This document shows positions 16,429 through 40,104 of a stretch of 40,104 bases of DNA, one piece after another. The notes under the pieces are model-generated. The model saw nothing but the letters and a program-made list of their open reading frames with translations. It was not told where the DNA came from and ran no database searches. The stretch is from an uncultured bacterium. Lineage in GTDB: Bacteria > Auribacterota > Erginobacteria > Erginobacterales > DAOSXE01. Where the stretch lies: positions 1 to 40,104 of the forward strand of contig CAZIEA010000003.1 in the NCBI GenBank assembly GCA_964538495.1, read 5' to 3'. Each line of letters starts with the position of its first letter. Position 1 is the first letter of the stretch. The position numbers and the translations under genes are program-made.

Positions 16429-16447
16429 GCCGCTGCGAACATTCTTT

Positions 16448-16560
16448 TCCACAGATTACATGGATTTTCATAGATTTTTTTTCTTCATGCTCTTCATGAT
16501 CTTCATGGTGAGAAAAGTATTTTCTCTGTGGCCTCTGTTGCCTCTGTGCGTTCTGTGCTG
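16448..16560 (+). repeat. partial mosaic-element copy (A/B modules) plus CTCTGTG-type tandem words
   Basis: TTCCACAGATTACATGGATTTTCATAGATTTTTTTT then CTTCATGCT CTTCATGAT CTTCATGGT (three 9-nt units, against two in other copies). It is followed by ttCTCTGTGg cCTCTGTTg cCTCTGTGcg tTCTGTGctg. Confidence 0.8.
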
Positions 16561-16653
16561 AGATAGCGAGCGAAACCTTAAGCACTGCCCGCATAAAACG
16601 GAAGAGAGCCAAAAATCAAAATAGACGTTTGCGGACCGATTAAGGAGAGAAGG

Positions 16654-18431: not shown

Positions 18432-18455
18432 ATCATTCATATGTAGGCCGTGTAA

Positions 18456-18566
18456 AAATTCGAAATTCGAATGACGAAACTCGAATGAAATTCGAAGTCC
18501 GAATGAAGAAATTCGAAACCACTGAGAAGAGTATGTTCCGAGTTTCTGATTTCGAGTTTCGAATTT
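18456..18566. repeat. array of TTCGAA palindromes with 7/14-nt spacing, plus an 11-bp inverted repeat
   Basis: Perfect TTCGAA at 18459, 18466, 18491, 18512 and 18558. One-mismatch variants at 18480, 18498 and 18551. AAATTCGAAAC (18509-18519) is the reverse complement of GTTTCGAATTT (18556-18566). Confidence 0.8.
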
Positions 18567-18573
18567 ATTGGGT

Positions 18574-18639
18574 CTCCTGACTCCTGACTCCTGTTTCCTG
18601 GGTTTTGCCGGATTACGGATCACTGATTACTGATTACGG
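18574..18639 (+). repeat. mosaic-element modules F (CTCCTGA heptads) and E' (GATTACG/GATCACT heptads) upstream of 18675 start
   Basis: CTCCTGA CTCCTGA CTCCTGT TTCCTGG (18574-18601), then gttttgcc, then GGATTACGGATCACTGATTACTGATTACGG (18610-18639), then TTTT and ccagaacc. Same order and orientation as 35903-36000. Confidence 0.8.
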
Positions 18640-18674
18640 TTTTCCAGAACCATTCGTACGGGTCGGGATAGATT

Positions 18675-20216: not shown

Positions 20217-20268
20217 AATTTTGCAGATTTGTTCTTGCGCCACGGCGCCAAGATCGCAAAGGCTTTTA

Positions 20269-20362
20269 CTCTATGCTCTATGCTCTATGCCCTCTGCTCT
20301 ATGCTGAAGCATGTCCACAGATTTCACAGATTTTAACTTCATGTTCTTCATGGTGATAAAAG
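20269..20362 (+). repeat. CTCTATG heptad run followed by A/B modules of the mosaic element
   Basis: CTCTATG x3, CCCTCTG, CTCTATG (20269-20303). Then GTCCACAGATTTCACAGATTTTAACTTCATGTTCTTCATGGTGATAAAAG (20313-20362). Confidence 0.85.
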
Positions 20363-20459
20363 CGGCGGGCCAATCCTCATACCGCATGCTTCACGACGTT
20401 TTCACAGAGAAATCAGATTCAATCAGGCGAAAGATTTGCGCATCCCGAAACCTGATTTT

Positions 20460-20512
20460 TCAGTTGAAGAGGGCCAGCTCGGCCAGGGAGTAGAAATTGT
20501 AGCGGCTGCCGT
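20460..20512 (-). pseudogene. relic 3' end of a third discoidin-domain gene
   Basis: The reverse strand reads ..LNGSRYNFYSLAELALFN*. By my hand alignment about 80% of nucleotides match the 3' end of 23139-23735 (..DGSRYNFYSLAELALFK*). There is no upstream coding body, and the fragment abuts the stop of the TPR ORF at 20513. Confidence 0.6.
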
Positions 20513-21013: not shown

Positions 21014-21066
21014 ATAGGTATTTCCCAGGAGCAGGTATCCCAGACTGTTGTTCGGATCGGAAGCAA

Positions 21067-23067: not shown

Positions 23068-23138
23068 TGATAAACCTGTTTTTGATAAGAATCAGGAGGC
23101 AGCCGCTGCCGGTTATTAGGGGATGTAAAAAATAATTA

Positions 23139-23735
23139 TCATTTGAACAACGCGAGTTCGGCCAGGGAGTAGAAGTTGTAGCGGCTTCCGTCCTCGTGTC
23201 CTTTGAGGATTGTCAGGCGCCAGTAACGGAAAGCGCGGTCGTTGGCGAAGTCCCACTTCCACCAAACGGCCTTGCCCGGGGTTTCCCTCAGGACGATATC
23301 AGCCACCTTTTCCCAGGACTCCCCATCGTCGCTTCCGGCGAGCTCGGCTTGGCGCAGGAACTGCCGGGGCAGGTCGGCCCGGGGGAGGGCGGCCAGGGCC
23401 CGCACCGTTTGTTTTTTCCCCTCTCCGAAATCCACGGCCACCCAGGCGAGCTTGCCCACCTCATCGAGCTCGATGTGCCAGAAGGAGTTGGGGTTGCCGT
23501 CGTTGAGTTTGGCCGCGGATTCGTTGGCGGAATTTTGGGAAGAAGCGGAGAGGATGGCCTCCGGTTGCCTGAGCAAATTCGCGCCAGCGTCGAGATCCGG
23601 GACTGTCCGCGCCTCCAGGCCGGAAAGCCCGATCCCGAAAAGATCGAGCCGGGTCGCCACCTGGACGACGATGGCGGCGAAGATGAGCAGGATGATTCCC
23701 AGGGCTATTTTTTCCGCGCGGCTGAACTTTTCCAT
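23139..23735 (-). CDS. single-pass membrane-anchored discoidin (F5/8 type C-like) domain protein, 198 aa
   Basis: SD AAGGAGG lies 6 nt before the ATG at 23735. N-terminal TM (IALGIILLIFAAIVVQV). Domain motifs NDGNPNSFWH, VAVDFGEGKKQTVRAL, GSDDGESW, FRYWRL, SLAELALFK*. Collinear and gap-free with 27814-28410. Confidence 0.8.
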   Translation of the reverse strand: MEKFSRAEKIALGIILLIFAAIVVQVATRLDLFGIGLSGLEARTVPDLDAGANLLRQPEAILSASSQNSANESAAKLNDGNPNSFWHIELDEVGKLAWVAVDFGEGKKQTVRALAALPRADLPRQFLRQAELAGSDDGESWEKVADIVLRETPGKAVWWKWDFANDRAFRYWRLTILKGHEDGSRYNFYSLAELALFK

Positions 23736-23753: not shown

Positions 23754-23989
23754 GCATAGAGCATAGGGCAAAGGGCATAGAGTTTAAAAAACAGAATACA
23801 GGAGTCAGGAGTCGGAAAAAAATCGTAATCCGTGATCAGTGATCCGTAATCCGTCGAAACCCGGGATACAGGAAACAGGATTCAGAAGGCATAGGAATCC
23901 AGAATACAGAATCCAGAATTCAGAATGCGCAAGAATCCGTAAAATCTGTGAAATCTGTGGATAAGAAATAATCTGCGAAATCTGCGTAA
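23754..23989 (-). repeat. mosaic-element modules in reverse-complement orientation (sense relative to the - strand genes)
   Basis: The + strand shows CATAGAG-type heptads (23754-23782), ACAGAATACAGGAGTCAGGAGTCGG (23791-23815) and A7. Then CGTAATCCGTGATCAGTGATCCGTAATCCG (23824-23853) and GGGATACAGGAAACAGGATTCAG (23863-23885). Then GAATCCA/GAATACA heptads (23894-23929), AAAATCTGTGAAATCTGTGG (module A rc, within 23936-23966) and AATCTGCGAAATCTGCG (23970-23986). Confidence 0.85.
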
Positions 23990-24019
23990 TCTTAGTTTTG
24001 TAGTTCAAGCCGCGAAATC

Positions 24020-25714: not shown

Positions 25715-25737
25715 ATGTAGACATGTAGGACATGTAG
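25713..25737. repeat. ACATGTAG tandem words at the 5' edge of 24020-25714
   Basis: ACATGTAG ACATGTAG GACATGTAG. A related CACATGTAAGCATGT occurs at 38717-38731. Confidence 0.7.
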
Positions 25738-25784
25738 AAATTTCTTTTTTTACGCAGAGCTCCCGCAGGGGGCGAAGCCCAGGG

Positions 25785-25876
25785 ATTGAACTACGAATTA
25801 CGCGAATTTCGCGAATTCAGGTAACGGATTACTGATCACTGATTACGGACTACCGGTTTTTCCTGAACCCTGACCC
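25785..25876 (+). repeat. mosaic-element modules D-E'-T5-G, oriented antisense to the flanking - strand genes
   Basis: ATTGAACTACGAATTACGCGAATTTCGCGAATTC (25785-25818). CGGATTACTGATCACTGATTACGG (25825-25848). TTTTT, then CCTGAACCCTGACCC (25862-25876). Confidence 0.8.
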
Positions 25877-25895
25877 ATTGCGTTCCCCTGTGCTG

Positions 25896-27797: not shown

Positions 27798-27813
27798 GGT
27801 TAGTTTTTCCCCT

Positions 27814-28410
27814 TTACTCGAAGAGGGCGAGTTCCGCCATGGAGAGAAAGTTGTAGCGGACCCCGTCTTCGTGGCCGTTGATGATGCGCAGACGCCAGAA
27901 GCGGTAGGCCCGGTCGTTGGCGAAATCCCACTTCCGCCAATTGGCTTTTTCCGGGACGTCCCGCAGGACGATAACGGCTACGGGCTGCCAGGATGATCCG
28001 TCCTCGCTCCCGGATAATTCGGCCTGACGCAGGAACTGCCGGGGAATGTCGGCCCGGGGCCGGGCCGCCAGGGCGCGGATGGTTTTTGTTTCCTCCGGCC
28101 CGAAGTCCACCGTCAGGGAGGCCGGCTTGCCGATCTCGGCGACCGCCACGTGCCAGAATGTGTCGGGGTTATTGTCGGTCAGCCGATCCACGGCTTCATT
28201 TTCCTGGTTGTGGGAGGAGGCGGTCAGGGATGGGTCGTCCCGTTTCAGGAGATTGGCCTGGGTATCCAGTTCCGTGAATTCTTGCGGGATGACGCCGGGA
28301 AGTCCGAGATTGAACAATTCGAAGCGGGTTGTCACCTGGATGACGACGATGACCAGGATCAGGAGGATGAGGCCCAAGGCGATTTTTTCCATCCGGCTGA
28401 GATCTTTCAT
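27814..28410 (-). CDS. single-pass membrane-anchored discoidin (F5/8 type C-like) domain protein, 198 aa, paralog of 23139-23735
   Basis: SD AAGGAGG before the ATG at 28410. That ATG overlaps the TGA of the upstream YfhO gene (ATGA, 28407-28410). TM helix IALGLILLILVIVVIQV. Motifs TDNNPDTFWH, LTVDFGPEETKTIRAL, GSEDGSSW, YRFWRL, SMAELALFE*. Confidence 0.8.
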   Translation of the reverse strand: MKDLSRMEKIALGLILLILVIVVIQVTTRFELFNLGLPGVIPQEFTELDTQANLLKRDDPSLTASSHNQENEAVDRLTDNNPDTFWHVAVAEIGKPASLTVDFGPEETKTIRALAARPRADIPRQFLRQAELSGSEDGSSWQPVAVIVLRDVPEKANWRKWDFANDRAYRFWRLRIINGHEDGVRYNFLSMAELALFE

Positions 28411-30956: not shown

Positions 30957-31105
30957 TGCCGGTTGCTGGGTCGTAGCGCAGGGCGTCAGCCCTGATTAAA
31001 AATCTTACCACGGATTCAGCCGCCGGTCGCCGCCGGTTTTGCTGGCCCTTCACAAACGGATTAGCCAAAATAACCTTGTCCGCGGATTTCCCGGATTCGC
31101 TTTTT

Positions 31106-31188
31106 GTGGACGATATGGACGATGTGGACTGAGTGGACCGGAGAAGCCCTGAGGCGCTCGCGTCCTGAACCCTGAATCCTGAACCCTG
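31106..31188 (+). repeat. 9-nt (GTGGACGAT-type) and 7-nt (CCTGAAC) tandem words in the divergent YfhO/YfhO spacer
   Basis: GTGGACGAT ATGGACGAT GTGGACTGA GTGGACCGG (31106-31141). CCTGAAC CCTGAAT CCTGAAC CCTGC (31164-31188), ending 14 nt before the ATG at 31203. Confidence 0.8.
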
Positions 31189-31202
31189 CTATTTCGACTT
31201 CG

Positions 31203-33659
31203 ATGCAAGAGAGGCGCAAGGACATCCTGGGGGCGGGAATCCTGCTGGGGCTGATCGGGGTATTTTTTCTGCCCCTGGCGACGGGCTGGGGCCGTTTTTT
31301 CTTCGACGACCTCGCTTTTACTTTTTATCCCCAGCAGGAGTACCTGGCTTCCCTCCTCCGGCAGGGTCTTTTCCCTCTCTGGGACCCGGCGGTCTGCGCC
31401 GGGGCGACGCCTTTTTTCTCCCGGCTCTTTTCGGCGGCTTATTACCCGGTTAACTGGATCTTTCTTCTGCTCGGGCGGGGGTCCTTTCCCGGGCTGGTTC
31501 TCCTCCCGCTTTATCTTCATTATCTGGCGGCCGCGCTCTTTTCTTACCTCCTGGCCCGACAAGGCTGGGAGCTTAACCGGCCGGGTTCGGGAGTCTTTGC
31601 CCTGGCTTATACCCTCTCTCCCTCCATGATCTACATGGCCACTTTTCCCCCCGAGATCTTCGTGCAGAGCTGGCTGCCGCTGCTTATCCTGCTCAGTCTC
31701 CGTTTTTCCCGGCGCGGCGGCCGGGGCTGGCTCCTGCTCGGTTCCGTGGTTTTTACCCTGGCCGCCAGCGCGGGCGACGTCCCTTTCGTCTTTCACTTGC
31801 TCTTTCTCTGGGGGCTCTCCGTTTTGGGCTGGGCTCTTTGGGCTTTCGGGACCGGGCGAAGGCGCCAAGCCGCCCGAGTCCTCCTGGGGACCTCGGTGAT
31901 GATCCTGATCGGGGGGCTCCTGGCCGGGGTTTATCTTTCCAACATAGCCGCGGGCTTGCGGATGCTTTCCGCCGATGACCCGGGAGTGGTGGAAGACCTC
32001 TGTTCCATCCGGCAGAGCCTGCACCCGCTTTACCTGCTTACCCTCCTGATCCCCGATTTCTTCGGAGGAGTGGATCTCCATCACTCCTGGGGCGCGGCCT
32101 GGGAATCTCACTGCACCCTCAACGACGGCAACCTCCTGGGCGGCCTGGCCGCCATTATCCTGGTTCTCCTGTCTCTCTCCCGGGTTGGGAAGGAGCGTGC
32201 CGCCCGCCCCGGGCTTCCTTCTCCGCGGGCTCTTTTTCTGTTTTTCGCCACGGTTGTGCTGCTGGGAACAGTCATGGTCCTGGGACCGTATACTCCCCTC
32301 TATGGAATCCTCAAGGCGCTGAACCCGTATTTTGGCATGCCCTATCCCTTGCGCTACCGGATCATCCAGAACTTCGGGATGGCGGGGCTGCTGGGGGTAT
32401 CGGCTTCCGTCCTCTGGGCCCGGCCCGCTGGCCCCCGCCTCCGGCGGGTCGTTCTCTACCTGGGGGTGGCGGCCGCCGGGGCTCTGCTGGCCCTGGTCTG
32501 GGCGTACCGGGTTGGCGACGACGAAATCCTGGCCGGTTATTCTCACTTGGCGTGGCTGAAGGATTACGGCTGGTTCTTCTCCGTGATCGGCGGTTATGTT
32601 TTGGCCGCGGGGGGGCTTTTGCTGATTTTTACCAGATTTTTTCCCCGGTATTTCGGCAGATTCCTGACGATTCTGGTCGCGGCCGAGCTGATCCTTTTCG
32701 CCGCCCAGGCCTGTTACCGCAACCGCGTCCTCAACCGCCGTTACCAGGACATGTCAGCCGAGCGCTACCGGGGGCCCGGGGATCATCCCGTCTACCTGAT
32801 GGTTCGGGAGTTTCATCGAATTTGCCCGGAGGATCCCTCCCGGAGCCGCCGGGGATATTACCGCTCCTCGCTGGACAACCTGGGCTGGGTCTTCGGGTCC
32901 AACTCCGCTCTCGGGGTTGACGTCAAGCCCATGATAGCGGATTTTGCCGCTGTCATCTCCGAAGCGGCCCCGGGCTATCCTTACGAGCTCCGGCCGGCCG
33001 ACTGGACGGCGCGTTTCTGGAAGAACATGTCGGTGGGAAGTTTCGTTTCCGACCGGCCGGTCCCGGACCCGGAGGCGGAGTTGCGGAGCCGTTTCGGAAC
33101 GTTCTACTTTTATCGCTATCCGGGAGCTCTGCCCCGAGCCTACTTTCAGGACCGCTGGAGCGTTTCCGATCGGGCCGGTGAGCGTCAGGCCCTGCTCGAA
33201 TACGACCTCCGTCATGTCGGTTATCTCCCCTCCGAGGCGTGGATTTTACGCCCCCAGGGTGAAAGCTACCCTGGGCAGGAAGAAAACGGCCGGGCCGAGG
33301 GCAGCGCGAGCTTTCTCCTCTTCCAGGAGGAAAACCCGATCGGAAGGGCTGATTTTTCCTCCCCCAACCGAATGGAATTGGAGATCCTGAACCGGAGCCC
33401 GGGAATGCTGGTACTCACCGACGTCTGGCATCCGGACTGGCGGGCTACCGTGAACGGCCGGGAAGAAACCATTCACCGGGTCAACTACCTCCAGCGCGGG
33501 GTCTGGCTCCAATCGGGGAGCAACCTGGTGGTGATGGAGTTTCTCCCCTCTTCCCTGGGGCCGGGGCTGGCGGCAACGGCGGCCGGCCTGCTCGGGTTGG
33601 TTCTGCTTGCGGTTTCAACCTTTAAGACTCGATCGGCGGGGGGGACGCCGAAGAGTTAA
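31203..33659 (+). CDS. YfhO-family polytopic membrane protein (GT-C glycosyltransferase-like)
   Basis: 818 aa and polytopic. C-terminal block PGMLVLTDVWHPDWRATVNGREETIHRVNYLQRGVWLQSGSNLVVMEFLP, then a terminal TM. The 498-aa antisense ORF is a GC shadow. Confidence 0.75.
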   Translation: MQERRKDILGAGILLGLIGVFFLPLATGWGRFFFDDLAFTFYPQQEYLASLLRQGLFPLWDPAVCAGATPFFSRLFSAAYYPVNWIFLLLGRGSFPGLVLLPLYLHYLAAALFSYLLARQGWELNRPGSGVFALAYTLSPSMIYMATFPPEIFVQSWLPLLILLSLRFSRRGGRGWLLLGSVVFTLAASAGDVPFVFHLLFLWGLSVLGWALWAFGTGRRRQAARVLLGTSVMILIGGLLAGVYLSNIAAGLRMLSADDPGVVEDLCSIRQSLHPLYLLTLLIPDFFGGVDLHHSWGAAWESHCTLNDGNLLGGLAAIILVLLSLSRVGKERAARPGLPSPRALFLFFATVVLLGTVMVLGPYTPLYGILKALNPYFGMPYPLRYRIIQNFGMAGLLGVSASVLWARPAGPRLRRVVLYLGVAAAGALLALVWAYRVGDDEILAGYSHLAWLKDYGWFFSVIGGYVLAAGGLLLIFTRFFPRYFGRFLTILVAAELILFAAQACYRNRVLNRRYQDMSAERYRGPGDHPVYLMVREFHRICPEDPSRSRRGYYRSSLDNLGWVFGSNSALGVDVKPMIADFAAVISEAAPGYPYELRPADWTARFWKNMSVGSFVSDRPVPDPEAELRSRFGTFYFYRYPGALPRAYFQDRWSVSDRAGERQALLEYDLRHVGYLPSEAWILRPQGESYPGQEENGRAEGSASFLLFQEENPIGRADFSSPNRMELEILNRSPGMLVLTDVWHPDWRATVNGREETIHRVNYLQRGVWLQSGSNLVVMEFLPSSLGPGLAATAAGLLGLVLLAVSTFKTRSAGGTPKS

Positions 33660-34524: not shown

Positions 34525-35715
34525 ATGCGTTTCTGGAAAAAACGTGCACTTGCCCTGGGGCTGGCGCTCCTGACCGCCTCCCCGATCTCCGCCGCCGGAT
34601 TGTCGGTGGGAGAGCCGGGCCGGGGGATCAGCTACGGCAACCTCCTGCTCACTCCCCGGCTCTGGCTTTCCGGCGGTTACGAGAGCAATATCTACTGGAC
34701 CGAGACCGACGAGGAGAGCGATTACCTGGCTACGGTCAGTCCCGGGATCAGCCTGAAGCTTCCCTGGGAGCACGAACGCAACCTCCTGGAAATTTCCTAC
34801 CGGGCCGACCTGATCTATTACCGGGACCACCCGCTGGAGAACCATCAGGATAACAATCTAGACGGCTATCTGCGCTACCGGCTGATGCGTGAATACACCC
34901 TGGAAATCGGGGACAACTACCAGAGAACTTCCTCCCGTTTCGACACCGAGTTCCGCGAGCGCATCCCCCGCACCGACAACACATTCTGGGGCCGGGTTTC
35001 CGGGGACTACAATTCCTTCGGTTTTGAGGCGGGGTACCGCAACTTTTACCGGAATTTCCATACCGACCGCTACGAACAATACGACCGGGTCGAAAACGCC
35101 GGGATTTTTGCTCTGCTCTACCGGGTCGCCCCCAAAACCCAAGCCCTGGTCGAGTATGTCTATAACCAGATCGACTACCGAACCGCCGACGAGCGCGACG
35201 GGCACTACCACGAAATCCTGGGCGGGTTCCGGGGCGAGCTTACCCCCCGCTTGAGCGGGACCGCCAAGGTCGGTTACCAGATCCGTCGCTACGACCAGCC
35301 TTACTGGAACGACTTCGAGGGTTTGGTCGGGTACCTTTCCCTGGAGCAGGTTTTCTCCGCCCATACCAACCTCCGCCTGGGCTGGGAACGTTCGCTGCAG
35401 GAGTCGACTTACGCCGGGAACAGCTATTACGAGGTAAACCGGGTCTGGGCCCGTCTCAACCAACAGCTGGCCCGCAAGCTCAGCGGCTTCGCCGAGTTCG
35501 GCTACGGCAACTATATGTATCCCAACCCCGATTTGGTCCCCGGGGGGAGGCGCCGTATTGACGATACTTACAACTTTGCCGTTGGCGTCACCTACAGCCT
35601 GCAGGAATGGCTGGAATTCTCCCTGCGCTACGCCTGGCGCCGGCGGGAATCGACCGTTGCCGATCTCGGCTACGTGGACAACTACCTCGGGTTCACGGTT
35701 TACGCCTGGTACTGA
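34525..35715 (+). CDS. outer-membrane beta-barrel protein (EpsL / polysaccharide-export-associated barrel type)
   Basis: Signal peptide MRFWKKRALALGLALLTASPISAAG. Alternating hydrophobic and Y/R/G-rich strands throughout. C-terminal aromatic signature ..YLGFTVYAWY*. Sits immediately upstream of wza/wzc. Confidence 0.65.
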   Translation: MRFWKKRALALGLALLTASPISAAGLSVGEPGRGISYGNLLLTPRLWLSGGYESNIYWTETDEESDYLATVSPGISLKLPWEHERNLLEISYRADLIYYRDHPLENHQDNNLDGYLRYRLMREYTLEIGDNYQRTSSRFDTEFRERIPRTDNTFWGRVSGDYNSFGFEAGYRNFYRNFHTDRYEQYDRVENAGIFALLYRVAPKTQALVEYVYNQIDYRTADERDGHYHEILGGFRGELTPRLSGTAKVGYQIRRYDQPYWNDFEGLVGYLSLEQVFSAHTNLRLGWERSLQESTYAGNSYYEVNRVWARLNQQLARKLSGFAEFGYGNYMYPNPDLVPGGRRRIDDTYNFAVGVTYSLQEWLEFSLRYAWRRRESTVADLGYVDNYLGFTVYAWY

Positions 35716-35755
35716 GCGTCGAACCCGATCCGCGGATTAAGCCGCCCGCCAGTTT

Positions 35756-36000
35756 GTCCACAGATTTCACAGATTTTATCTTCATGATCTTCATGGTGTA
35801 AAAACAGGCTGAAGACTGAAGGAACCGACGCACCGATTGAACCGCGAATCTCGCGAATCCACACGGATCAAGGTGACTGATTACTGATTACGGTTTACGG
35901 GTGAATCCTGACTCCTGTTTCCTGTATCCTTAAACTTTGCCTGATTACGGATCACTGATCACGGATTACTGGTTTTTCCTGAACCCTGAACCCTGAACCC
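35756..36000 (+). repeat. full copy of modular intergenic mosaic element (A-B-C-D-E-F-E'-T5-G)
   Basis: - A: CACAGATTT x2
- B: CTTCATGAT CTTCATGGT
- C: CTGAAGA CTGAAGG
- D: GATTGAACCGCGAATCTCGCGAATCC
- E: GACTGATTACTGATTACGG (35875-35893)
- F: GAATCCTGACTCCTGTTTCCTGTATCC (35903-35929)
- E': CTGATTACGGATCACTGATCACGGATTACTGG (35941-35972)
- T5, then G: CCTGAAC x3 (35978-36000), abutting the TTG start at 36002. Confidence 0.85.
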
Positions 36001-36001
36001 T

Positions 36002-36619
36002 TTGATCAAGAAGCTCGCCTTTACAATCCTACTGGGGTATTTGCTCCCGGCTCTGGCCGGTTGCGGGTCGGTTCCGCCCTCGCCCCCGGCCGAACCCGAG
36101 GAGACCGTCCTTCCGCCGGCCCGGGACACCTTCGTGATCGGCTCGGGCAACATCCTCGAGATCACGGTGTTCGGGGAACCCGAGCTCTCCCTGCCGGCCC
36201 GGGTCACGGAGTCGGGATTCATTTCCTATCCTCTTCTGGGCGAGGTCAAGGTTGCGGGTTATACCCCGATGGAGTTGGAGCGGCGTCTGGAAGCGCTTTT
36301 GGGACGGGATTACCTGGTCTCTCCCCGGGTGACTGTATTTGTCCGGGAATACGGCACGATTTCGGTGCTCGGGCAGGTCAAGAAACCCGGGGCTTATCAA
36401 TACCGGGAACTCCTCTCGGTCACCGAGGCTATCGCCCTGGGCGGAGGCTTGACCGATATTGCCAAGCCCAATAGCACCCAGATCATCCGCAACGACCCGG
36501 AGACCGGAAAAACGGTGATCCGGGTCCGGATGGCCGACATTCTGGAGAAGGACGAGGGGGAAAAGGACATCCTGCTCAAACCCGGCGACATCGTTTTCGT
36601 TCCCGAAAGTTTTTTTTAG
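36002..36619 (+). CDS. wza: short outer-membrane polysaccharide export (OPX) lipoprotein, Wza-like (Poly_export + one SLBB, no C-terminal OM helix)
   Basis: Lipoprotein signal (M)IKKLAFTILLGYLLPALAGC. FVIGSGNILEITVFGEPELS...SGFISYPLLGEVKVAGYTPMELERRLEALLGRDYLVSPRVTVFVREY, then ISVLGQVKKPGAY. Only 205 aa. TTG start with no SD. Confidence 0.85.
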   Translation: MIKKLAFTILLGYLLPALAGCGSVPPSPPAEPEETVLPPARDTFVIGSGNILEITVFGEPELSLPARVTESGFISYPLLGEVKVAGYTPMELERRLEALLGRDYLVSPRVTVFVREYGTISVLGQVKKPGAYQYRELLSVTEAIALGGGLTDIAKPNSTQIIRNDPETGKTVIRVRMADILEKDEGEKDILLKPGDIVFVPESFF

Positions 36620-36635
36620 CGGCGGAGAAAAGGTT

Positions 36636-38687
36636 ATGGCCATATCGAGCGAATGGATCGGCTTGCGGGAAAAAGCCTATATCGTTCTCAAGCGCAAGTG
36701 GGTGCTCGTCACCTTCCTGGTCGTGGTCATGACCGTGGTCACGATAGCCACCTTTACCTCCACCCCGATTTACCGGGCCAGCGCCCGGATCATCATCGAG
36801 CCGCTGATGCCCAAGGTGATGCCTTTCGAGGAACTGTTCAGCATCGGCGGGCGCCAGCTCGATTATTACAACACCCAGTATAAGATCCTTACCAGCCCCT
36901 CCCTGGCGGAGAAGGTGGCTGAGGATCTGAAGGCCCGCAAGACCGCCTTGAAGCTTTCCCGAAGACAATTCGAAGACCTGACTTCCGATCGGCTTCTGGG
37001 GATGGTCAATATCAAGCCCATCGCCCAGAGCTATATGGTGGACATCCAGGTGATCGGACCCGATCCCCGCCTGGCCGCCCTGATCGCGAATTCCTGGGCC
37101 GAGCAATACAACCGGCACGAAATCGAGGCTAAGCTCGACAGCACCCGGCAGGCCTTGAGCCAGCTCGAACACCGCCTGCAGGAACAGAGCTTGAAAGTCC
37201 AGGAAGCCCAGCGAATTCTTCAGGACTACAAGGAAAAGGAAAAAATCGTCTCGCTGGAAAACCGGCAGAGCATCATCGAACGGGACCTGGCCGAGCTGAG
37301 TTCCCTTTACCTCAAGGCCCGCCAGGAGCGGACCAACAAGGAGCATGAACTAGGCCAGCTCCAGAAGTACCGGGGCGGGGACGAGTCCATCGAAGCTCTT
37401 TCGGTGATCATGCGCAATCCGATCATTCAGCGGCTCAAGAGCCAGATGGTCAGCCTGCAAGGGAGCCTTTCGGAATACTCTCAGCGCTACAAGGCCCAGC
37501 ACCCGAAAATCCAGCAGATCGAGGCCGAGATCGCCGCCTTGAGGAAAAACCTGGAGGAAGAGATCGGGAAAATCATCGAAGGGACGCGCAAGGAATACGA
37601 AATCGCCTCCGCCAACGAGGAGAAGATCGTTTCCGAGTTGGAGAGTTTGAAGGTCCTTTCCCTGGAGATGGCCCGCAAGAACATTCTTTACAGCGCGCTT
37701 TCGGACCAGGTCACCAGTTCCCGCAAGATCTACGAGGCCTTGCTGTCCCGGGTTAACGAGACCAGCATGAGCGGGCAGATCGAGGTGACCAATATCCGGG
37801 TTCTGGATTACGCCCCGGAACCCCGGCAACCCTTCAAGCCCCGCAAGGGGTTTAACCTGGCCATGGGGCTGGCGGTGGGGATCTTCGGGGGGCTCGGGCT
37901 GGTCTTTCTGCTCGAGAATCTCGACGACACCCTCAAGACCACCCAGGACGTCAAGAACCACCTCAAGCTTCCCATTCTGGGGCTGATCCCGATTTACGAG
38001 CAGATCAACGACCGTTCCCAGGATCGGCTTCCGATTCAGGAGAAACCGATGGGGGTGGTCGCGGAATCTTTTCGGGCCATCCGGACCGGGATTCAGTTTT
38101 CCGGTTCCGAAAACCCCTGCCGGGTCCTGCTGGTGACCAGTTCCGTCCCGGGGGAGGGGAAAACCGATATTGCCGCCCAACTGGCCCTGACTTTCGCCCA
38201 GTCCGGGGAAAAAGTCCTCCTGGTGGACAGCGACCTGCGCCGCCCCCGGCTGAACCGTATCTTCCCCGGCTTGGAGGACGGGCCGGGATTGAGCGAGTAC
38301 CTGCAGGGGGCCGCTGCCCTGGATGACATCTTCCGGCCGGTGGCGGAGGGGAAAATCACCCTGGTCCCCAGCGGCCGTTCCCCCGAGACCCCGGCGGAAC
38401 TCCTGAATTCGCGCCTTTTTTTGGAATTTCTCGAGCGCGCGCGCGCCGGCTGGCAGAGGATTATTCTCGATTCTCCGCCCCTGATCTCGGTGACCGATGC
38501 CGCTCTGCTGGGAAGAATGTCCGATGGGGTGCTTTTCACGGTCCGGGCCGGGGCGGTGAGCTGGAAAAAAACCATTCACGGCCGCGACCAGCTCGTGGCG
38601 GTCCAGGCCCGCATTCTCGGGGTGATCTTCAACGCCGTGGACGTCAACCGCAGCGAGTACTACCACTACTACCGCAACTACTACTGA
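36636..38687 (+). CDS. wzc: polysaccharide co-polymerase / BY-kinase (Wzc/GumC/EpsB type) with C-terminal tyrosine cluster
   Basis: Wzz-like N-terminus with TM, and a long coiled-coil periplasmic region. Walker A VTSSVPGEGKT, then VLLVDSDLRRP. Walker B IILDSPP. Tail SEYYHYYRNYY* has 6 Tyr in its last 9 residues (38658-38684). Confidence 0.9.
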   Translation: MAISSEWIGLREKAYIVLKRKWVLVTFLVVVMTVVTIATFTSTPIYRASARIIIEPLMPKVMPFEELFSIGGRQLDYYNTQYKILTSPSLAEKVAEDLKARKTALKLSRRQFEDLTSDRLLGMVNIKPIAQSYMVDIQVIGPDPRLAALIANSWAEQYNRHEIEAKLDSTRQALSQLEHRLQEQSLKVQEAQRILQDYKEKEKIVSLENRQSIIERDLAELSSLYLKARQERTNKEHELGQLQKYRGGDESIEALSVIMRNPIIQRLKSQMVSLQGSLSEYSQRYKAQHPKIQQIEAEIAALRKNLEEEIGKIIEGTRKEYEIASANEEKIVSELESLKVLSLEMARKNILYSALSDQVTSSRKIYEALLSRVNETSMSGQIEVTNIRVLDYAPEPRQPFKPRKGFNLAMGLAVGIFGGLGLVFLLENLDDTLKTTQDVKNHLKLPILGLIPIYEQINDRSQDRLPIQEKPMGVVAESFRAIRTGIQFSGSENPCRVLLVTSSVPGEGKTDIAAQLALTFAQSGEKVLLVDSDLRRPRLNRIFPGLEDGPGLSEYLQGAAALDDIFRPVAEGKITLVPSGRSPETPAELLNSRLFLEFLERARAGWQRIILDSPPLISVTDAALLGRMSDGVLFTVRAGAVSWKKTIHGRDQLVAVQARILGVIFNAVDVNRSEYYHYYRNYY

Positions 38688-38857
38688 AAAGGCTGAAGGG
38701 ACTGCCGCCGCATTTCACATGTAAGCATGTTTTGGCATAGAGCATAGAGTCACCCGGGTTTCAGGGGCGAATTGGGGTCGGGCTCGGGATCGCTATCGAG
38801 CGCGCGCAATAATCACACAAAGGCGCAGAGGCGCAAAGACGCCAAGGAAACCGATTC

Positions 38858-39043
38858 GTCCACAGATTTCCACGGATTTTTTTCTTCATGCTCTTCATGG
38901 TGTAAAAAACAGGCTGAAGACTGAAGACTGAAGGAACCGACGCACCGATTGAACCGCGAATCTCGCGAATCCGCGCCAATTCAGGCGAATGCCTACTGCT
39001 TACTGCTCACTGGTTTTCCGCCGGATTACGGATTACCGACCGG
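38858..39043 (+). repeat. second long copy of the mosaic element (A-B-C-D core near-identical to 35756-35860, divergent 3' half)
   Basis: GTCCACAGATTTCCACGGATTTTTTTCTTCATGCTCTTCATGGTGTAAAAAACAGGCTGAAGACTGAAGACTGAAGGAACCGACGCACCGATTGAACCGCGAATCTCGCGAATCC (38858-38972). Then CTACTG CTTACTG CTCACTG G (38993-39013), TTTTCC and GCCGGATTACGGATTACCGACCGG. Confidence 0.85.
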
Positions 39044-39072
39044 AAAGCCGGCTGAAGAAAAGACCGGGAATT

Positions 39073-40104
39073 ATGGAAATGACAACGACCAAGGAAAGCT
39101 CTTTCCGGGGCCGCCGGGTCCTGGTCACCGGGGGGGCCGGGGCGATCGGGAGCAACCTGGTCCGGGCCTTATCTTCTTCCGGGGCGAGCTTGGTGATCGT
39201 CCTGGATGACCTCTCCGCCTCGAAGGCCTGGAACGTGCCCTCCCTGCCCAATGTCCTCTTTGTGGAGGGCAGCGTCCTGGACGAAGAAGCGCTCCGGCGG
39301 GTTTTCCACGAGGGGATTGAGGACGTTTTCCACTTGGCCGCCTTTTTCGCCAACCAGAACTCGGTGGATTACCCCGAACGCGACCTCTCCGTCAACGGGC
39401 TGGGCATCCTCAGGGTCCTGGAATACTCGAGACTCTCCGGAATCGAGCGTTTCGTTTACGCTTCCTCCGGTTGCGCCATCTATCCGCCCGACGCCCCGCT
39501 TCCCCTTACGGAGGAAAACACCACCCTGCGCCTGGGCTCTCCCTACCAGATCACCAAGATGCTGGGCGAGCTTTACTGCAACTATTTTCACTCCCAGTAC
39601 GGGATGAAGGTTTTCAAGGCGCGCTTCTTCAACTCCTACGGCCCCGGGGAAGTGCCCGGCCGTTACCGCAACGTCATCCCCAACTTTATTTACTGGGCCC
39701 TGCGCGGGGAGCCATTGCCAATTACCGGCAGCGGCGCGGAGACGCGCGACTTCACCTTTGTCGGGGACATTGTGGCGGGGATGATGAAGGCGGCGGAGAC
39801 CTCCTCGGCGGCGGGGGAATCCTTCAACCTCGGCGCGGGAACCGAAACCAGGGTGATCGACCTGGCCGAAATGATTAACCGCAAGACCGGAAACCGCGCC
39901 GGGGTGCGCCACATCCCCCGGCGGCGCTGGGACCACAAGGACCGCTTGCTTGCCTCCACCGCCAAGGCCGAAAAGCTCTTCGGCTACCGGCCCCAAACCG
40001 GGTTCGAGGCGGGGCTCGACGCCGTCATTGCCTGGTTTCGGGAAAACTGGAACCGGATCGAGGAAGCGGCCGACTTTCCCCCCGGCCTCTCCCCCGCCCT
40101 CAAC
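39073..40104 (+). CDS. NAD-dependent epimerase/dehydratase (extended SDR; UDP-sugar epimerase / decarboxylase type), 3' end off-window
   Basis: The frame is open from the ATG at 39073 to the window end (344 codons), so it is absent from the stop-delimited ORF track. Rossmann motif VLVTGGAGAIGSNL. YASSGCAIY. Catalytic YxxxK in SPYQITKMLGE. NSYGPGE. Confidence 0.85.
   Translation, partial: MEMTTTKESSFRGRRVLVTGGAGAIGSNLVRALSSSGASLVIVLDDLSASKAWNVPSLPNVLFVEGSVLDEEALRRVFHEGIEDVFHLAAFFANQNSVDYPERDLSVNGLGILRVLEYSRLSGIERFVYASSGCAIYPPDAPLPLTEENTTLRLGSPYQITKMLGELYCNYFHSQYGMKVFKARFFNSYGPGEVPGRYRNVIPNFIYWALRGEPLPITGSGAETRDFTFVGDIVAGMMKAAETSSAAGESFNLGAGTETRVIDLAEMINRKTGNRAGVRHIPRRRWDHKDRLLASTAKAEKLFGYRPQTGFEAGLDAVIAWFRENWNRIEEAADFPPGLSPALN

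What the first reader, a model, noticed from the sequence alone, without database searches (positions are those of the whole stretch)
35756..36000. Modular mosaic intergenic element shared by at least seven spacers; two copies have a near-identical core of about 105-115 nt
**Seen in sequence.**
- 35756-35860 and 38858-38972 align end to end: GTCCACAGATTT(C)CAC(A/G)GATTT.. CTTCATG(A/C)TCTTCATGGTGTAAAAA(A)CAGGCTGAAGACTGAAG(ACTGAAG)GAACCGACGCACCGATTGAACCGCGAATCTCGCGAATCC.
- They differ by only a few substitutions and small indels, including one extra 7-nt unit.
- The surrounding spacer sequence and the flanking genes are unrelated.
- Pieces of the same element occur at 16448-16518, 20313-20362, 23936-23989 (reverse complement), 25785-25876, 18574-18639 and 31164-31188.
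- I see no terminal inverted repeats, no target duplication, no transposase and no consistent ORF.
- The element is AT-richer than the genes.

**Inference.** This is a dispersed, non-autonomous element or a family of leader/sRNA-like sequences, comparable in concept to BIME/REP-type mosaics but with its own vocabulary. Nucleotide-level conservation of the core argues for selection or recent spread.
Basis: seen in the sequence. Interest (0 to 1): 0.8.

Follow-up and report, generated by a model that had tools for sequence, protein, structure and literature searches.

The report
Mosaic intergenic repeats of short arrays
The spacer is one copy of a very abundant, lineage-specific family of non-coding intergenic repeats, built like beads on a string from 2-4-copy tandem arrays of 9-nt and 7-nt words in a fixed order; one of these words (CTTCATG) also forms such arrays in many unrelated bacterial phyla, with no explanation I could find.

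Summary
Window 35753-35862 and 38855-38974 are near-identical, differing by one extra 7-nt unit, and the listed fragments in six other spacers are confirmed.

It is not a discrete element. It is a stretch of a genome-wide grammar of short tandem arrays:
- The 9-mer chain runs cgcgaat > cgcagatt > cacagatt > cttcatg > (ctctgtg) > ctgaag > catgtag/cgcaaag and lies nearer the upstream stop codon.
- Heptamer arrays (GATYACK, CCTGNNY) lie nearer the downstream start codon.

One related metagenome holds most of 95 further contigs carrying the composite.
- Modules are almost exclusively intergenic and 70-80% co-oriented with the downstream gene.
- They are absent from syntenic loci of relatives whose Wzc protein is 69-73% identical to the window's.
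- They are swapped module by module in a strain whose coding DNA is about 95-98% identical.

There is no Rfam match, no stable fold, no covariation, no TIR/TSD seen by inspection and no transposase among neighbouring genes. Array cores are invariant while the 2-nt spacers vary freely.

Best reading: a composite small interspersed repeat, BIME/BOX/STRR-like with new architecture, whose words are probably protein-recognition sites.

The CTTCATG 9-mer array also occurs in about ten phyla and some viral contigs, often as inverted pairs. No Rfam family or searchable paper matched it.

The parts
35716..36001 (+). Whole porin-wza spacer: a complete module chain, 9-mer arrays first, then heptamer arrays up to the TTG start of wza at 36002
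   Evidence: Sequence; TRF arrays; GC 0.48-0.56. The orthologous spacer is only 85-122 nt, with unrelated sequence, in relatives whose Wzc is 69-73% identical.
35756..35777 (+). cacagatt module: GTC-CACAGATTT-CACAGATTT-T (period 9, 2 units)
   Evidence: This module precedes cttcatg in 104 of the adjacent same-strand pairs counted.
35780..35804 (+). cttcatg module: CTTCATG-AT-CTTCATG plus tail GTGTAAAAA (period 9)
   Evidence: The core is invariant and the 2-nt spacer free across copies; the tail is GT[GA]A[GA]. The same array occurs in many phyla.
35806..35822 (+). ctgaag module: AGG-CTGAAGA-CTGAAGG (period 7, 2 units; 3 units in the second copy)
   Evidence: Unit number varies from 2 to 7 among 35 aligned copies.
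35821..35842 (+). Non-repetitive linker GGAACCGACGCACCGATTGAAC
   Evidence: Conserved GGAAC(C/T)GCCGCC-type linker after ctgaag arrays in most copies.
35843..35860 (+). cgcgaat module: CGCGAAT-CT-CGCGAAT-CC (period 9); end of the near-identical core
   Evidence: The same continuation (..CGCGAATCCACAC.ATCAAGG.GAC.GATTAC..) is seen in L166 and L170.
35873..35971 (+). Heptamer arrays: CTGATTA x2 (35876-35891), TCCTGNN x3-4 (35902-35930), GATYACK x4 (35941-35971)
   Evidence: TRF; the repeat finder D2/D9. Heptamer modules lie nearest the downstream start and are co-oriented with it (gatyac 38/9, cctgNNt 36/13).
35977..36001 (+). (CCTGAAC)3 array directly abutting the TTG start of the wza lipoprotein gene; no Shine-Dalgarno sequence visible on reading
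   Evidence: This is the only part of the spacer conserved in strain L209. The same array lies 14 nt upstream of the ATG at 31203.
38858..38972 (+). Second copy of the core: cacagatt, cttcatg, ctgaag x3, linker, cgcgaat
   Evidence: Alignment; sequence.
38688..39072 (+). Whole wzc-epimerase spacer. Order: ctgaag, degenerate catgtag, reverse-complement ctctatg, cgcaaag-like array (38818-38846), the core, then TACTGCT and GGATTAC heptads
   Evidence: In strain L209 only the first module after the stop codon is shared. In the 69-73% relatives this spacer is 13-15 nt and the epimerase gene is inverted.
16429..16653 (+). Spacer with cacagatt-like, cttcatg x3 and ctctgtg arrays
18432..18674 (+). Spacer with ttcgaa-type arrays, CTCCTGA x3 and GATYACK x4 heptads upstream of the ATG at 18675
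20217..20512 (+). Convergent spacer with cgcaaag-like, CTCTATG x5, cacagatt and cttcatg arrays; there is no downstream gene to serve
23772..24019 (-). Spacer with the chain on the minus strand (cgcagatt, cacagatt, GAATNCA, GATYACK, CTCCTGA, ctctatg), co-oriented with the minus-strand gene starting at 23771
25715..25895 (+). Spacer between two minus-strand genes carrying plus-strand catgtag, cgcgaat, GATYACK and CCTGAAC arrays; an anti-oriented exception
30957..31202 (+). Divergent spacer with TGGACGATN x3 and (CCTGAAC)3 arrays upstream of the ATG at 31203

Best explanation
The 35756-36000 feature is one instance of a genome-wide, lineage-specific family of composite small interspersed repeats. 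It is not a gene, a structured RNA or a discrete transposon.

Shown:
- Each spacer is a chain of modules. Each module is a 2-4-unit tandem array of a 7-nt word phased every 9 nt (or every 7 nt), usually closed by a short tail (GTRAR).
- The modules follow a preferred order and strand.
- Identical pieces of about 40-250 nt are shared between unrelated intergenic regions.
- Unit number varies from copy to copy.

Inferred:
- The family expands and reshuffles by recombination-like copying (gene conversion or template switching at shared words) plus unit gain and loss. An autonomous transposition cycle is not required.
- The chains are transcribed with the neighbouring genes. This would explain why they are tolerated mostly in one orientation and why 9-mer arrays sit nearer the upstream stop and heptamer arrays nearer the downstream start.
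- The invariance of the 7-nt cores next to freely varying 2-nt spacers indicates that the words are recognition sites for a sequence-specific DNA- or RNA-binding factor. That factor either drives their spread or makes them useful to the host.
- The two near-identical 110-nt copies in the window are a recent copying event between two spacers 3.1 kb apart.
For: Grammar:
- The transition matrix over the window plus 95 related contigs shows cgcgaat>cgcagatt (15), cgcagatt>cacagatt (36), cacagatt>cttcatg (104), cttcatg>ctctgtg (45) or >ctgaag (44), ctgaag>catgtag (50) or >cgcaaag (17), and cgcaaag>cacagatt (30).
- 87% of adjacent modules are on the same strand.
- Only 22 of about 990 module hits lie inside called genes, although 75% of the DNA is coding.

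Abundance:
- 95 further contigs carry the cacagatt+cttcatg composite, most of them from a single metagenome. One of them overlaps the window end at 92% identity.
- Period-9 arrays number 666 against 37 in shuffles; period-7 arrays 493 against 133.

Orientation and polarity:
- The composite is co-oriented with the downstream gene in 65 cases against 25. Ratios for other modules: gatyac 38/9, cgcagatt 25/5.
- 9-mer modules lie a median 60-135 nt after the upstream stop (ctctgtg 187). Heptamers lie a median 72-100 nt before the called start.

Lineage specificity and turnover:
- Syntenic 22-kb loci of relatives whose Wzc is 69-73% identical contain no modules and have short, unrelated spacers.
- In a strain with 96% identical Wzc, only the gene-proximal module of each spacer is kept and the rest is replaced by other modules.

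Copying in pieces:
- 1951 non-coding HSPs of at least 90% identity link unrelated loci. Median length is 56 nt, 95th percentile 92 nt, maximum 244 nt.

Word constraint:
- The middle unit of triple CTTCATG arrays is invariant in 62 of 62 cases, while the spacer positions carry 0.15 and 0.73 bits.
- The two spacers of an array are never identical: 0 of 62 against 11.6 expected, and 0 of 40 against 9.0 for CATGTAG.

Not RNA structure or a known family.

Neighbouring genes are functionally diverse and no transposase or multi-copy IS protein was found among those examined.
Against: - No copying or mobilising enzyme and no binding factor has been identified.
- Orientation bias is strong but not absolute: about 25% of copies are anti-oriented, including window 25715-25895, and 20217-20512 lies in a convergent spacer.
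- The contigs are too short to separate transcription-linked from replication-linked orientation.
- Only about 0.46 Mb of the lineage was sampled, chosen for containing the composite. Genome-wide numbers and the absence of a transposase are therefore provisional. Only a third of neighbouring proteins were scanned against Pfam, and only the 25 commonest families were visible.
- Copies within one genome share ancestry, so the spacer statistics overstate independence. Across phyla the depletion of identical spacers is weak (6 of 63 against 10 expected).
- Constraint on the cores fits a host function as well as a selfish one.
Confidence: 0.6

Rival explanations
1. Cis-regulatory arrays of the 5' UTR. 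[quoted passage not shown] This is what was proposed for TAACTGA repeats in Beggiatoaceae. The 9-mer chain would be an upstream regulatory or insulating region.
For: - Heptamer arrays are the modules closest to the downstream start and the most strongly co-oriented with it (gatyac 38/9, cctgaac 40/15, cctgNNt 36/13).
- (CCTGAAC)3 abuts the wza start at 36002 and lies 14 nt before the ATG at 31203. On reading the sequence I saw no Shine-Dalgarno motif at either start; this was not tested formally.
- (CCTGAAC)3 is the one part of the spacer kept in strain L209.
- The published precedent has the same features: forward orientation, directly upstream of starts, few canonical RBS (PMC4679880).
- Related words (TTACTGA, TCACTGA) form intergenic arrays in Mycetohabitans.
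Against: - About a quarter of arrays are anti-oriented or lie in convergent spacers.
- Orthologous genes in the 69-73% relatives lack the arrays altogether.
- The arrays upstream of the proximal one are swapped between near-identical strains.
- One GATYAC array sits inside a coding region.
- No expression data are available.
Confidence: 0.2
2. A family of miniature non-autonomous transposons (MITE- or REPIN-like). The 9-mer arrays would be subterminal transposase-binding repeats of the element ends. The mosaic would arise from nested and adjacent insertions, with mobilisation in trans by an enzyme encoded elsewhere in the genome.
For: - In other phyla the CTTCATG array very often occurs as an inverted pair 7-116 nt apart: 48 of 113 hits, median gap 31 nt.
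- Inverted cacagatt pairs and nested palindromic arrangements occur in related contigs (L174, L186, L197, L158, L202).
- 78 of 180 spacers carry modules on both strands.
- The arrays occur in viral contigs.
- The sequences are AT-rich, intergenic, patchily distributed and lineage-specific.
- Whole cassettes are sometimes repeated in tandem 140-230 nt apart.
Against: - The two copies in the window and most chains are not flanked by inverted repeats, and no target duplication is visible.
- Element length is not fixed. Shared segments are short and break at module borders.
- There is no stable fold.
- The spacer positions in inverted arms are not complementary above chance (30%).
- No transposase or multi-copy protein was found among the neighbours examined: about 350 called genes clustered for multi-copy families, about 117 of them scanned against Pfam, and ORFs of 106 cross-phylum loci clustered.
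Confidence: 0.13
3. A structured small RNA, leader or riboswitch-like element, repeated upstream of many genes.
For: - Sequence conservation between copies is high.
- Copies tend to be co-oriented with the downstream gene.
- A weak hairpin can form between the cttcatg and ctgaag arrays.
Against: - No Rfam hit, even at E<=1.
- Fold energies are not better than shuffles (z -0.8 and -1.1).
- The consensus fold over 35 copies is -7.2 kcal/mol with 0 compensatory pairs.
- Copies differ by whole-unit indels and module swaps.
- No terminator or promoter signal exceeds the shuffled controls.
Confidence: 0.04
4. An assembly artefact: a collapsed or duplicated repeat created by the assembler.
For: Short-read contigs of this lineage break at these spacers (L001 is 2614 nt, L209 is 2856 nt, and many Ga0068714 contigs end in arrays). 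Repeat-induced misjoins are therefore possible. Two contig pairs are 100% identical and then diverge at a repeat.
Against: - The two copies differ by substitutions and indels and have different flanks.
- Independent assemblies reproduce the spacer start (L001).
- Other strains and metagenomes carry the same grammar in more than 100 different gene contexts.
Confidence: 0.02

Closest known systems
BIMEs / REP (enterobacterial bacterial interspersed mosaic elements) and neisserial NIMEs
   Same: Extragenic. Hundreds of copies. Composite: several short motifs combined in a regular order. Co-transcribed with the flanking genes. Species- or lineage-restricted (definitions as summarised in PMC3049150).
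   Different: The BIME unit is a ~35-nt imperfect palindrome (hairpin) in alternating orientation. Here the units are direct tandem arrays of 7-nt words at 9- or 7-nt phase, with no significant folding. There is no sequence similarity. No RAYT was found in the sampled DNA.
Pneumococcal BOX elements (boxA-(boxB)n-boxC)
   Same: Ordered modular composite with a variable number of internal tandem units. Intergenic. Present in one species, rarer in its closest relative and absent beyond it, which Croucher et al. take as the signature of a parasitic rather than host-specialised sequence (PMC3049150). The same pattern is seen here.
   Different: BOX modules are 45-59 nt with terminal inverted repeats and extensive secondary structure, and they turn over slowly. 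Here the units are 7-9 nt, there is no TIR or structure, and turnover between near-identical strains is fast.
Heptanucleotide tandem repeats: cyanobacterial STRR, LSSR (Mrazek 2007), and TAACTGA repeats of Beggiatoaceae/Cyanobacteria/Bacteroidetes (MacGregor 2015, PMC4679880)
   Same: Short tandem heptamer arrays of 2-6 units. Intergenic. Forward orientation just upstream of start codons, often without a canonical RBS. Patchy cross-phylum distribution with no known transfer mechanism. The window's words TTACTGA and TCACTGA differ from TAACTGA by one base.
   Different: Those families are single-word arrays. Here about 15 different words, mostly 9-mers, are concatenated in a fixed order into 100-400-nt chains, and the chains themselves are copied. 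The STRR comparison rests on my own knowledge (Mazel et al. 1990); that paper was not read here.
MITEs / REPINs
   Same: AT-rich, non-coding and intergenic. In other phyla the CTTCATG arrays form inverted doublets separated by a short spacer, like REPINs.
   Different: In the window copies there is no TIR, TSD, fixed length or tight hairpin. REPINs are thought to be inherited vertically with their RAYT (my own knowledge), whereas the same array word occurs here in about ten phyla.

Membership tests
BIME/REP | The basic unit is an imperfect palindrome (REP/PU, ~35 nt) able to form a hairpin | tested here: not met
   Units are direct tandem arrays. Whole-spacer folds give z -0.8 and -1.1. The consensus fold of 35 copies is -7 kcal/mol with no covariation.
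BIME/REP | Mosaic of several motifs in a regular order, extragenic, many copies | tested here: met
   Transition matrix; 22 of about 990 module hits in genes; at least 112 composites.
BIME/REP | Associated RAYT (TnpA_REP) gene in the genome | tested here: inconclusive
   No transposase among the 25 commonest Pfam families of 117 neighbouring proteins, and no multi-copy enzyme among about 350 called genes. Only about 0.46 Mb of the lineage was available.
MITE | Terminal inverted repeats and target-site duplication bounding an element of defined length | tested here: not met
   The repeat search reports no inverted repeat flanking the two core copies and I saw no flanking direct repeat; TSDs were not searched systematically. 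Shared segments have variable ends, median 56 nt. Inverted pairs do exist in some related and cross-phylum copies.
MITE | Highly base-paired secondary structure | tested here: not met
Heptamer tandem repeats (STRR / LSSR / TAACTGA type) | Tandem arrays of a 7-nt unit in intergenic DNA, beyond chance | tested here: met
   Period-7 arrays 493 against 133 in shuffles in the lineage's contigs. TRF rows in the window.
Heptamer tandem repeats (STRR / LSSR / TAACTGA type) | Forward orientation immediately upstream of start codons (BOGUAY TAACTGA pattern) | tested here: inconclusive
   Co-orientation is 38/9, 40/15 and 36/13. Median distance to the called start is 72-100 nt, and the arrays abut the start at 36002 and 31203. 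Start-codon calls are approximate.
Heptamer tandem repeats (STRR / LSSR / TAACTGA type) | A single word (TAACTGA, or the STRR1-3 words) | tested here: not met
   The words here are GATYACK (including TTACTGA and TCACTGA), CCTGNNY, CTGAAGR, CTCTATG and GAATNCA. Most modules have period 9.
BOX-type composite repeat | Ordered modules with a variable number of internal tandem units | tested here: met
   (2-3 cacagatt units, 2-3 cttcatg, 2-7 ctgaag).
BOX-type composite repeat | Terminal modules (boxA/boxC) with inverted-repeat similarity to an IS element | tested here: not met
   No terminal inverted modules and no IS were found.
Rfam RNA families (including the JUMPstart motif of polysaccharide operons) | Match to a curated covariance model | tested here: not met
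   0 hits at gathering score in the window and in 20 cross-phylum loci; 0 hits at E<=1 in 35600-39200. That JUMPstart is among the Rfam models is my recollection. Neighbouring genes are not restricted to polysaccharide functions.

The most novel reading that the evidence does not exclude
The 9-mer arrays represent a previously undescribed, cross-phylum class of intergenic element. Its form is a 7-nt word of the type C-R-Y-R-R-A-K (CATGAAG, CACAGAG, CACGAAA, CGCAGAG, CATGTAG, CACGGAT and others), repeated two to four times at exact 9-nt phase with free 2-nt spacers, and headed by (T)T(A/C)ACC. The arrays are often paired in inverted orientation.

The identical CTTCATG array occurs in Lentisphaerota, Kiritimatiellia, Verrucomicrobiota, Phycisphaerae, Desulfobacterota, Nitrospirota, Acidobacteriota, Methylococcales (including cultured Methylotuvimicrobium), Chromatiales and some viral contigs.

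This would imply either a widely shared or horizontally mobile protein that reads these arrays (a recombinase, transposase or RNA/DNA-binding regulator), or a new super-family of mobile elements. The window's lineage would be an extreme case in which the system has filled most long spacers.
Probability: 0.3. Interest if true: 0.8.

Novelty: new variant of a known kind. Interest (0 to 1): 0.6.

Why it matters
- Repeat families of this kind (REP/BIME, BOX, Correia elements, STRR) shape operon expression, mRNA stability, genome rearrangement and assembly quality. None has been described for this uncultivated PVC-group lineage. Its nearest named relatives, at only 47-49% Wzc identity, are Candidatus Auribacterota.
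- About 5% of the window is made of these chains, and short-read assemblies of the lineage break at them.
- The architecture, ordered chains of very short tandem arrays with invariant cores and free spacers, differs from the hairpin-based families. It points to a sequence-specific reader protein that could be identified experimentally.
- The same array word occurs in many phyla, including the genetically tractable Methylotuvimicrobium buryatense. That makes an otherwise inaccessible question testable: what maintains or spreads such words across bacteria?

Tried and rejected
- Promoter or terminator. The sigma-70 and terminator scan of 35500-39300 gives nothing above shuffles. The only promoter-like hit (TTTACA-18-TAAAAT) is on the strand opposite the chain and is not conserved among copies.
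- DnaA-box resemblance of TT(N)TCCACA at the cacagatt junction. Only some copies fit the consensus, so I dropped it as coincidence (sequence inspection).
- Small ORFs. 9-nt periodicity preserves reading frame within a module, but junction lengths vary, so no consistent peptide results.
- Stops in all frames as an insulator. This holds for TGA-containing heptamers but not for most 9-mers (sequence inspection).
- Replication-strand-linked orientation. Too few informative contig pairs: 6 versus 6 when the genes differ.
- Hairpin selection in inverted CTTCATG pairs. Spacer positions are not complementary above chance.
- An EPS-specific JUMPstart-like signal. Neighbouring genes are diverse and Rfam has no hit.
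- A neighbouring mobilising gene. No recurrent protein family lies near the arrays in 106 cross-phylum loci, apart from families that merely contain the chance coding hit. The only multi-copy family in the lineage's contigs is made of FG-GAP-type, probably secreted, proteins.
- Exact 32-mer from the core in genome contigs: 0 hits.
- Exact 40-mer of the linker plus cgcgaat in all fetched loci: 0 hits; only diverged versions exist.
- Literature string searches for the array sequences: no relevant papers.
- Ortholog comparison through contig pairs in the two JGI metagenomes: the pairs turned out to be the same strain at 100% identity, so they were uninformative.
Full report
**1. The observation**

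A local alignment of the porin-wza spacer (35716-36001) with the wzc-epimerase spacer (38688-39072) runs 35753-35902 against 38855-39014. Its score is 173, against 17.9 +/- 2.4 for shuffles.

The first ~110 nt differ only by a few substitutions, 1-nt indels and one extra CTGAAGA unit. After ...CGCGAATCC the similarity decays.

All six further 'pieces' are present at the stated coordinates. Two of the shared words each occur four times in the window and never in 100 dinucleotide shuffles. The module-bearing spacers are AT-richer than the genes, at GC 0.42-0.55 against about 0.60.

The flanking genes are unrelated. They belong to a polysaccharide-export cluster: BBP2 porin, Wza, Wzc, epimerase, GT2, YfhO-like proteins, sulfatases.

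**2. Anatomy**

The spacers are not random AT-rich DNA carrying one shared element. They are almost wholly made of 2-5-unit tandem arrays of period 9 or 7 (TRF).

I scanned public metagenome contigs for the cacagatt+cttcatg composite. This returned 95 contigs, most of them from one JGI metagenome (Ga0068714) and its sister Ga0209164. One contig overlaps the end of the window at 92% identity, so a close relative of the window organism lives there.

The 112 composites show an ordered grammar:
- ..CGCGAATNTCGCGAATCC..
- AACTAAGATTACGCAGATTACCGCAGATT..
- GTC-CACAGATTT-CACAGATTT..
- CTTCATG-NN-CTTCATG-GTGAGAAAA..
- optionally CTCTGTG arrays ending GGTAAGGAAGTT
- AGG(CTGAAGR)2-7 GAAC(C/T)GCCGCC
- then CATGTAG arrays, or CGCAAAG arrays leading back to CACAGATTT, or CGCGAAT.

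A transition matrix quantifies this. Counts include cacagatt>cttcatg 104, cttcatg>ctctgtg 45 and >ctgaag 44, ctgaag>catgtag 50, and cgcaaag>cacagatt 30. In the same analysis 87% of adjacent modules share a strand. Only 22 of about 990 module hits lie in called genes, although 75% of the DNA is coding.

A second group of modules consists of heptamer arrays (GATYACK, CCTGNNT, CCTGAAC). These follow one another and lie nearer the downstream start.

The window's 35756-36000 is therefore a complete chain. The 'core' is the stretch cacagatt, cttcatg, ctgaag, linker, cgcgaat.

**3. Position and orientation**

I built a codon-usage gene caller trained on the window's Pfam-supported genes.
- The composite is co-oriented with the downstream gene in 65 cases and anti-oriented in 25. 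In tandem gene contexts the split is 44 to 11.
- Most modules show 70-80% co-orientation.
- 9-mer modules lie a median 60-135 nt from the upstream stop (ctctgtg 187).
- Heptamer modules lie a median 72-100 nt from the called start.

In the window, (CCTGAAC)3 abuts the TTG start of the wza lipoprotein gene and lies 14 nt before the ATG at 31203. On reading the sequence I saw no Shine-Dalgarno motif at either start.

There are exceptions. Window 25715-25895 is anti-oriented between two minus-strand genes, and 20217-20512 is a convergent spacer. The data cannot separate transcription-linked from replication-linked orientation.

**4. What it is not**

- Not a known RNA family. Rfam finds nothing at gathering score in the window or in 20 cross-phylum loci, and nothing at E<=1 in 35600-39200.
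- Not a stable structure. The whole spacers fold no better than shuffles, at z -0.8 and -1.1. An RNAalifold consensus over 35 copies of the core is -7.2 kcal/mol with no compensatory pair.
- Copies differ by whole-unit gains and losses and at the 2-nt spacer positions, not by compensatory changes.
- No promoter or terminator signal. Consensus hits do not exceed shuffles.
- Not a classical MITE. The repeat search reports no terminal inverted repeat around the two copies, and I saw no target duplication by inspection.
- No associated transposase was found. Neighbouring genes are functionally diverse: TPR proteins, epimerases, aminotransferases, ABC transporters, kinases. None of the commonest Pfam families among 117 neighbours is a transposase. 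The only multi-copy protein family in 0.46 Mb is made of FG-GAP-type, probably secreted, proteins.
- No blastn match in phages. The single plasmid match is an unrelated heptamer microsatellite, (TTACTGA)5(TTACTGG)3(TCACTGA)6..., in a Mycetohabitans megaplasmid.

**5. Evolutionary behaviour**

Wzc homologues give a graded series of relatives.

*Relatives at 69-73% Wzc identity.* The cluster is syntenic, but the 22-kb loci contain no modules. The porin-wza spacer is 85-122 nt of unrelated sequence. The wzc-epimerase spacer is 13-15 nt. These genomes are not wholly free of the words: one spacer in a contig from the same metagenome as the 69% relative carries them in a palindromic arrangement (L158/L196).

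*Strain at 96% Wzc identity (L209).* The coding DNA aligned here looks about 95-98% identical. Both spacers are filled, but with different module content.
- Upstream of wza, only (CCTGAAC)3 is shared. The GATYACK and CCTGNNT arrays are replaced by CTCTATG and TTCGAA arrays.
- After the wzc stop, both strains begin with ctgaag + GGAACYGCCGCC (with one extra unit in L209). They then diverge to cgcaaag + ctctatg in L209 and to catgtag + reverse-complement ctctatg in the window.

*Within the lineage.* 1951 non-coding segments of at least 90% identity link unrelated loci. Their median length is only 56 nt, the 95th percentile 92 nt and the maximum 244 nt. The window's 110-150-nt pair lies in the upper tail, consistent with a recent copying event between two spacers 3.1 kb apart.

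This pattern is dense in one lineage, sparse or absent in relatives, and turns over quickly. Croucher et al. used the same logic to call the pneumococcal BOX, RUP and SPRITE repeats parasitic rather than host-specialised (PMC3049150).

**6. Evidence for constraint on the words**

In triple CTTCATG arrays the middle unit's 7-nt core is invariant in 62 of 62 cases. The two spacer positions are almost free, at 0.15 and 0.73 bits.

The two spacers of an array are never the same: 0 of 62 against 11.6 expected. For CATGTAG the figure is 0 of 40 against 9.0 expected, spread over 23 and 18 different spacer pairs. Simple replication slippage would copy the spacer along with the core, so it cannot by itself explain these arrays. 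Either perfect repeats are lost or the spacers mutate freely while the cores are held.

Arrays of CTTCATG and CTCTGTG end in GT[GA]A[GA].

Read on one strand, most 9-mer words fit C-R-Y-R-R-A-K. Examples are CATGAAG, CACAGAG, CACAGAT, CGCAGAT, CGCGAAT and CGCAAAG (sequence inspection). This is what one expects of recognition sites for a sequence-specific nucleic-acid-binding factor. That interpretation is inference; no such factor was identified.

**7. An unexpected wider distribution**

CTTCATGNTCTTCATGGTG has 18 specified bases, so about 17 chance hits are expected in 596 Gb on both strands (my calculation).

Of 113 matches:
- 24 are plain hits inside long ORFs, which is about the chance level. 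Examples are FMIFMV in permeases and exosortases.
- 49 have a third unit.
- 48 have an inverted partner array (CATGAAGNNCATGAAG). Among the 40 inverted pairs measured, the gap is 7-116 nt with a median of 31.

Hosts include Lentisphaerota/Victivallales, Kiritimatiellia, Verrucomicrobiota, Phycisphaerae, many Desulfobacterota, Nitrospirota, Acidobacteriota, Methylococcales, Chromatiales and others. The Methylococcales include the cultured Methylotuvimicrobium buryatense 5G and the complete genome of strain KM1.

Neighbouring DNA in these genomes carries other arrays of the same style. Examples are CACAGAG, CACGAAR, CGCAGAG, CATGTAG, CGCGGATTA and CACGGATGA, often ending GGTTAA or GGTGAA. Period-9 arrays are enriched there too, 392 against 60 in shuffles, whereas period-7 arrays are not.

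About eight of 29 viral-contig hits are genuine arrays.

Further negatives:
- The window's other words (cacagatt, ctgaag, cgcgaat) do not recur in those loci.
- No protein family recurs next to the arrays.
- The spacer positions of inverted arms are not complementary above chance.
- No paper in the searchable library contains these strings.

I cannot say whether this reflects horizontal spread, which phage carriage would allow, or convergence on a shared reader.

**8. Comparison with known systems**

In concept this is a composite small interspersed repeat, like BIMEs, NIMEs and BOX. It fails the defining structural feature of BIME/REP (a palindromic unit) and of MITEs (TIR, TSD, tight fold).

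The heptamer part resembles the TAACTGA repeats of Beggiatoaceae, Cyanobacteria and Bacteroidetes. Those are forward-oriented, lie just upstream of starts that lack a canonical RBS, have a patchy cross-phylum distribution and have no known function (PMC4679880). It also resembles the LSSR and STRR heptamer arrays. Those families are single-word arrays, not ordered multi-word chains.

I therefore rate it a new variant of a known kind.

**9. Verdict**

The sRNA/leader reading is not supported, and 'element' should be replaced by 'grammar of modules'.

*Mechanism.* Shown: the order, orientation bias, intergenic restriction, lineage specificity, rapid module-level turnover, core constraint and absence of RNA structure. 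Inferred: spread by recombination-like copying plus unit gain and loss, co-transcription with neighbouring genes, and words acting as protein-recognition sites.

Confidence in this overall picture is 0.6. The main rival is a regulatory role for the start-proximal heptamers (0.2). The next is a MITE/REPIN-like mobile family (0.13).

Interest is 0.6. As a repeat family it is ordinary in kind. The architecture, the density and the cross-phylum recurrence of the array words are unusual and can be tested experimentally.

Noticed in passing
Genome-contig loci L004-L107 (e.g. L010:2602-2668, L018:2985-3100, L031, L086, L103): The CTTCATG 9-mer array occurs in non-coding DNA of about ten phyla, often as an inverted pair with a median gap of 31 nt. 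Hosts include cultured Methylotuvimicrobium. Other 9-mer arrays of the same style lie nearby (CACAGAG, CACGAAR, CGCAGAG, CATGTAG, CGCGGATTA). I found no literature or Rfam record.
   Followed up: partly
Viral-contig loci L212, L216, L218, L238 (4 arrays in 15 kb), L226, L234, L231, L228: Genuine CTTCATG arrays, some with inverted partners, sit between genes of IMG/VR viral contigs. About 13 other viral hits are one conserved phage coding sequence, so those are chance.
   Followed up: partly
window 28808-28840 (minus-strand gene 28407-30956): A GATYAC heptad array (GGTTACGGATCACGGATTACGGATCACGAATTACG on the coding strand) lies in frame inside the YfhO-like membrane protein gene. It encodes ..VTDHGLRITNY.. 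in a stretch that is not conserved in the paralogue at 31203-33659.
   Followed up: partly
L209:60-100 vs window 35977-36010: In the strain with 96% identical Wzc, the TTG start codon of wza is absent (CCTGAACCCTGAA-ATCAAGAAG versus CCTGAACCC-TTTG-ATCAAGAAG). The heptamer array runs straight into the coding sequence, so the start there must be a non-canonical codon (ATC) or an upstream in-frame CTG inside the array.
   Followed up: partly
window ~20400-23200: A low-GC island (0.41-0.51 against about 0.60) carries a TPR gene and a sulfatase-TPR gene. My codon-usage caller, trained on the rest of the window, does not recognise them. This is probably recently acquired DNA. One end abuts a module spacer (20217-20512).
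   Followed up: partly
window 20457-20512, 23136-23191, 27811-27866; also 23145-23444 vs 27820-28119: A 56-nt repeat in three copies corresponds to the 3' ends of the two paralogous F5/8-type-C genes (which are 74% identical over 300 nt). A third, orphan copy lies just past the stop of the TPR gene at 20513 and may be a gene remnant.
   Followed up: no
L210:590-740 (Mycetohabitans rhizoxinica megaplasmid NZ_CP062173.1, 139000-139140): An intergenic heptamer microsatellite, (TTACTGA)5(TTACTGG)3(TCACTGA)6(TCGTCGG)n, uses the same words as the window's GATYAC arrays. These words are one base away from the published TAACTGA repeat.
   Followed up: no
L001 (2614 nt), L209 (2856 nt), many Ga0068714 contigs; pairs L131/L170 and L187/L194: Short-read contigs of this lineage end in the repeat spacers. 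Two pairs of contigs from sister metagenomes are 100% identical and then diverge at a repeat, which suggests repeat-induced misjoins in public assemblies.
   Followed up: partly
L158:3500-4300 / L196 (metagenome of the relative with 69% identical Wzc): A GC-rich relative whose polysaccharide-export locus lacks modules nevertheless has one spacer with the same words in a nested palindromic arrangement: GGGTTCAGG.., GGTCCACAGA.., CTTCATG x3, ..TCTGTGGAC, CCTGAACCC... This is a possible low-density or ancestral state of the family.
   Followed up: no
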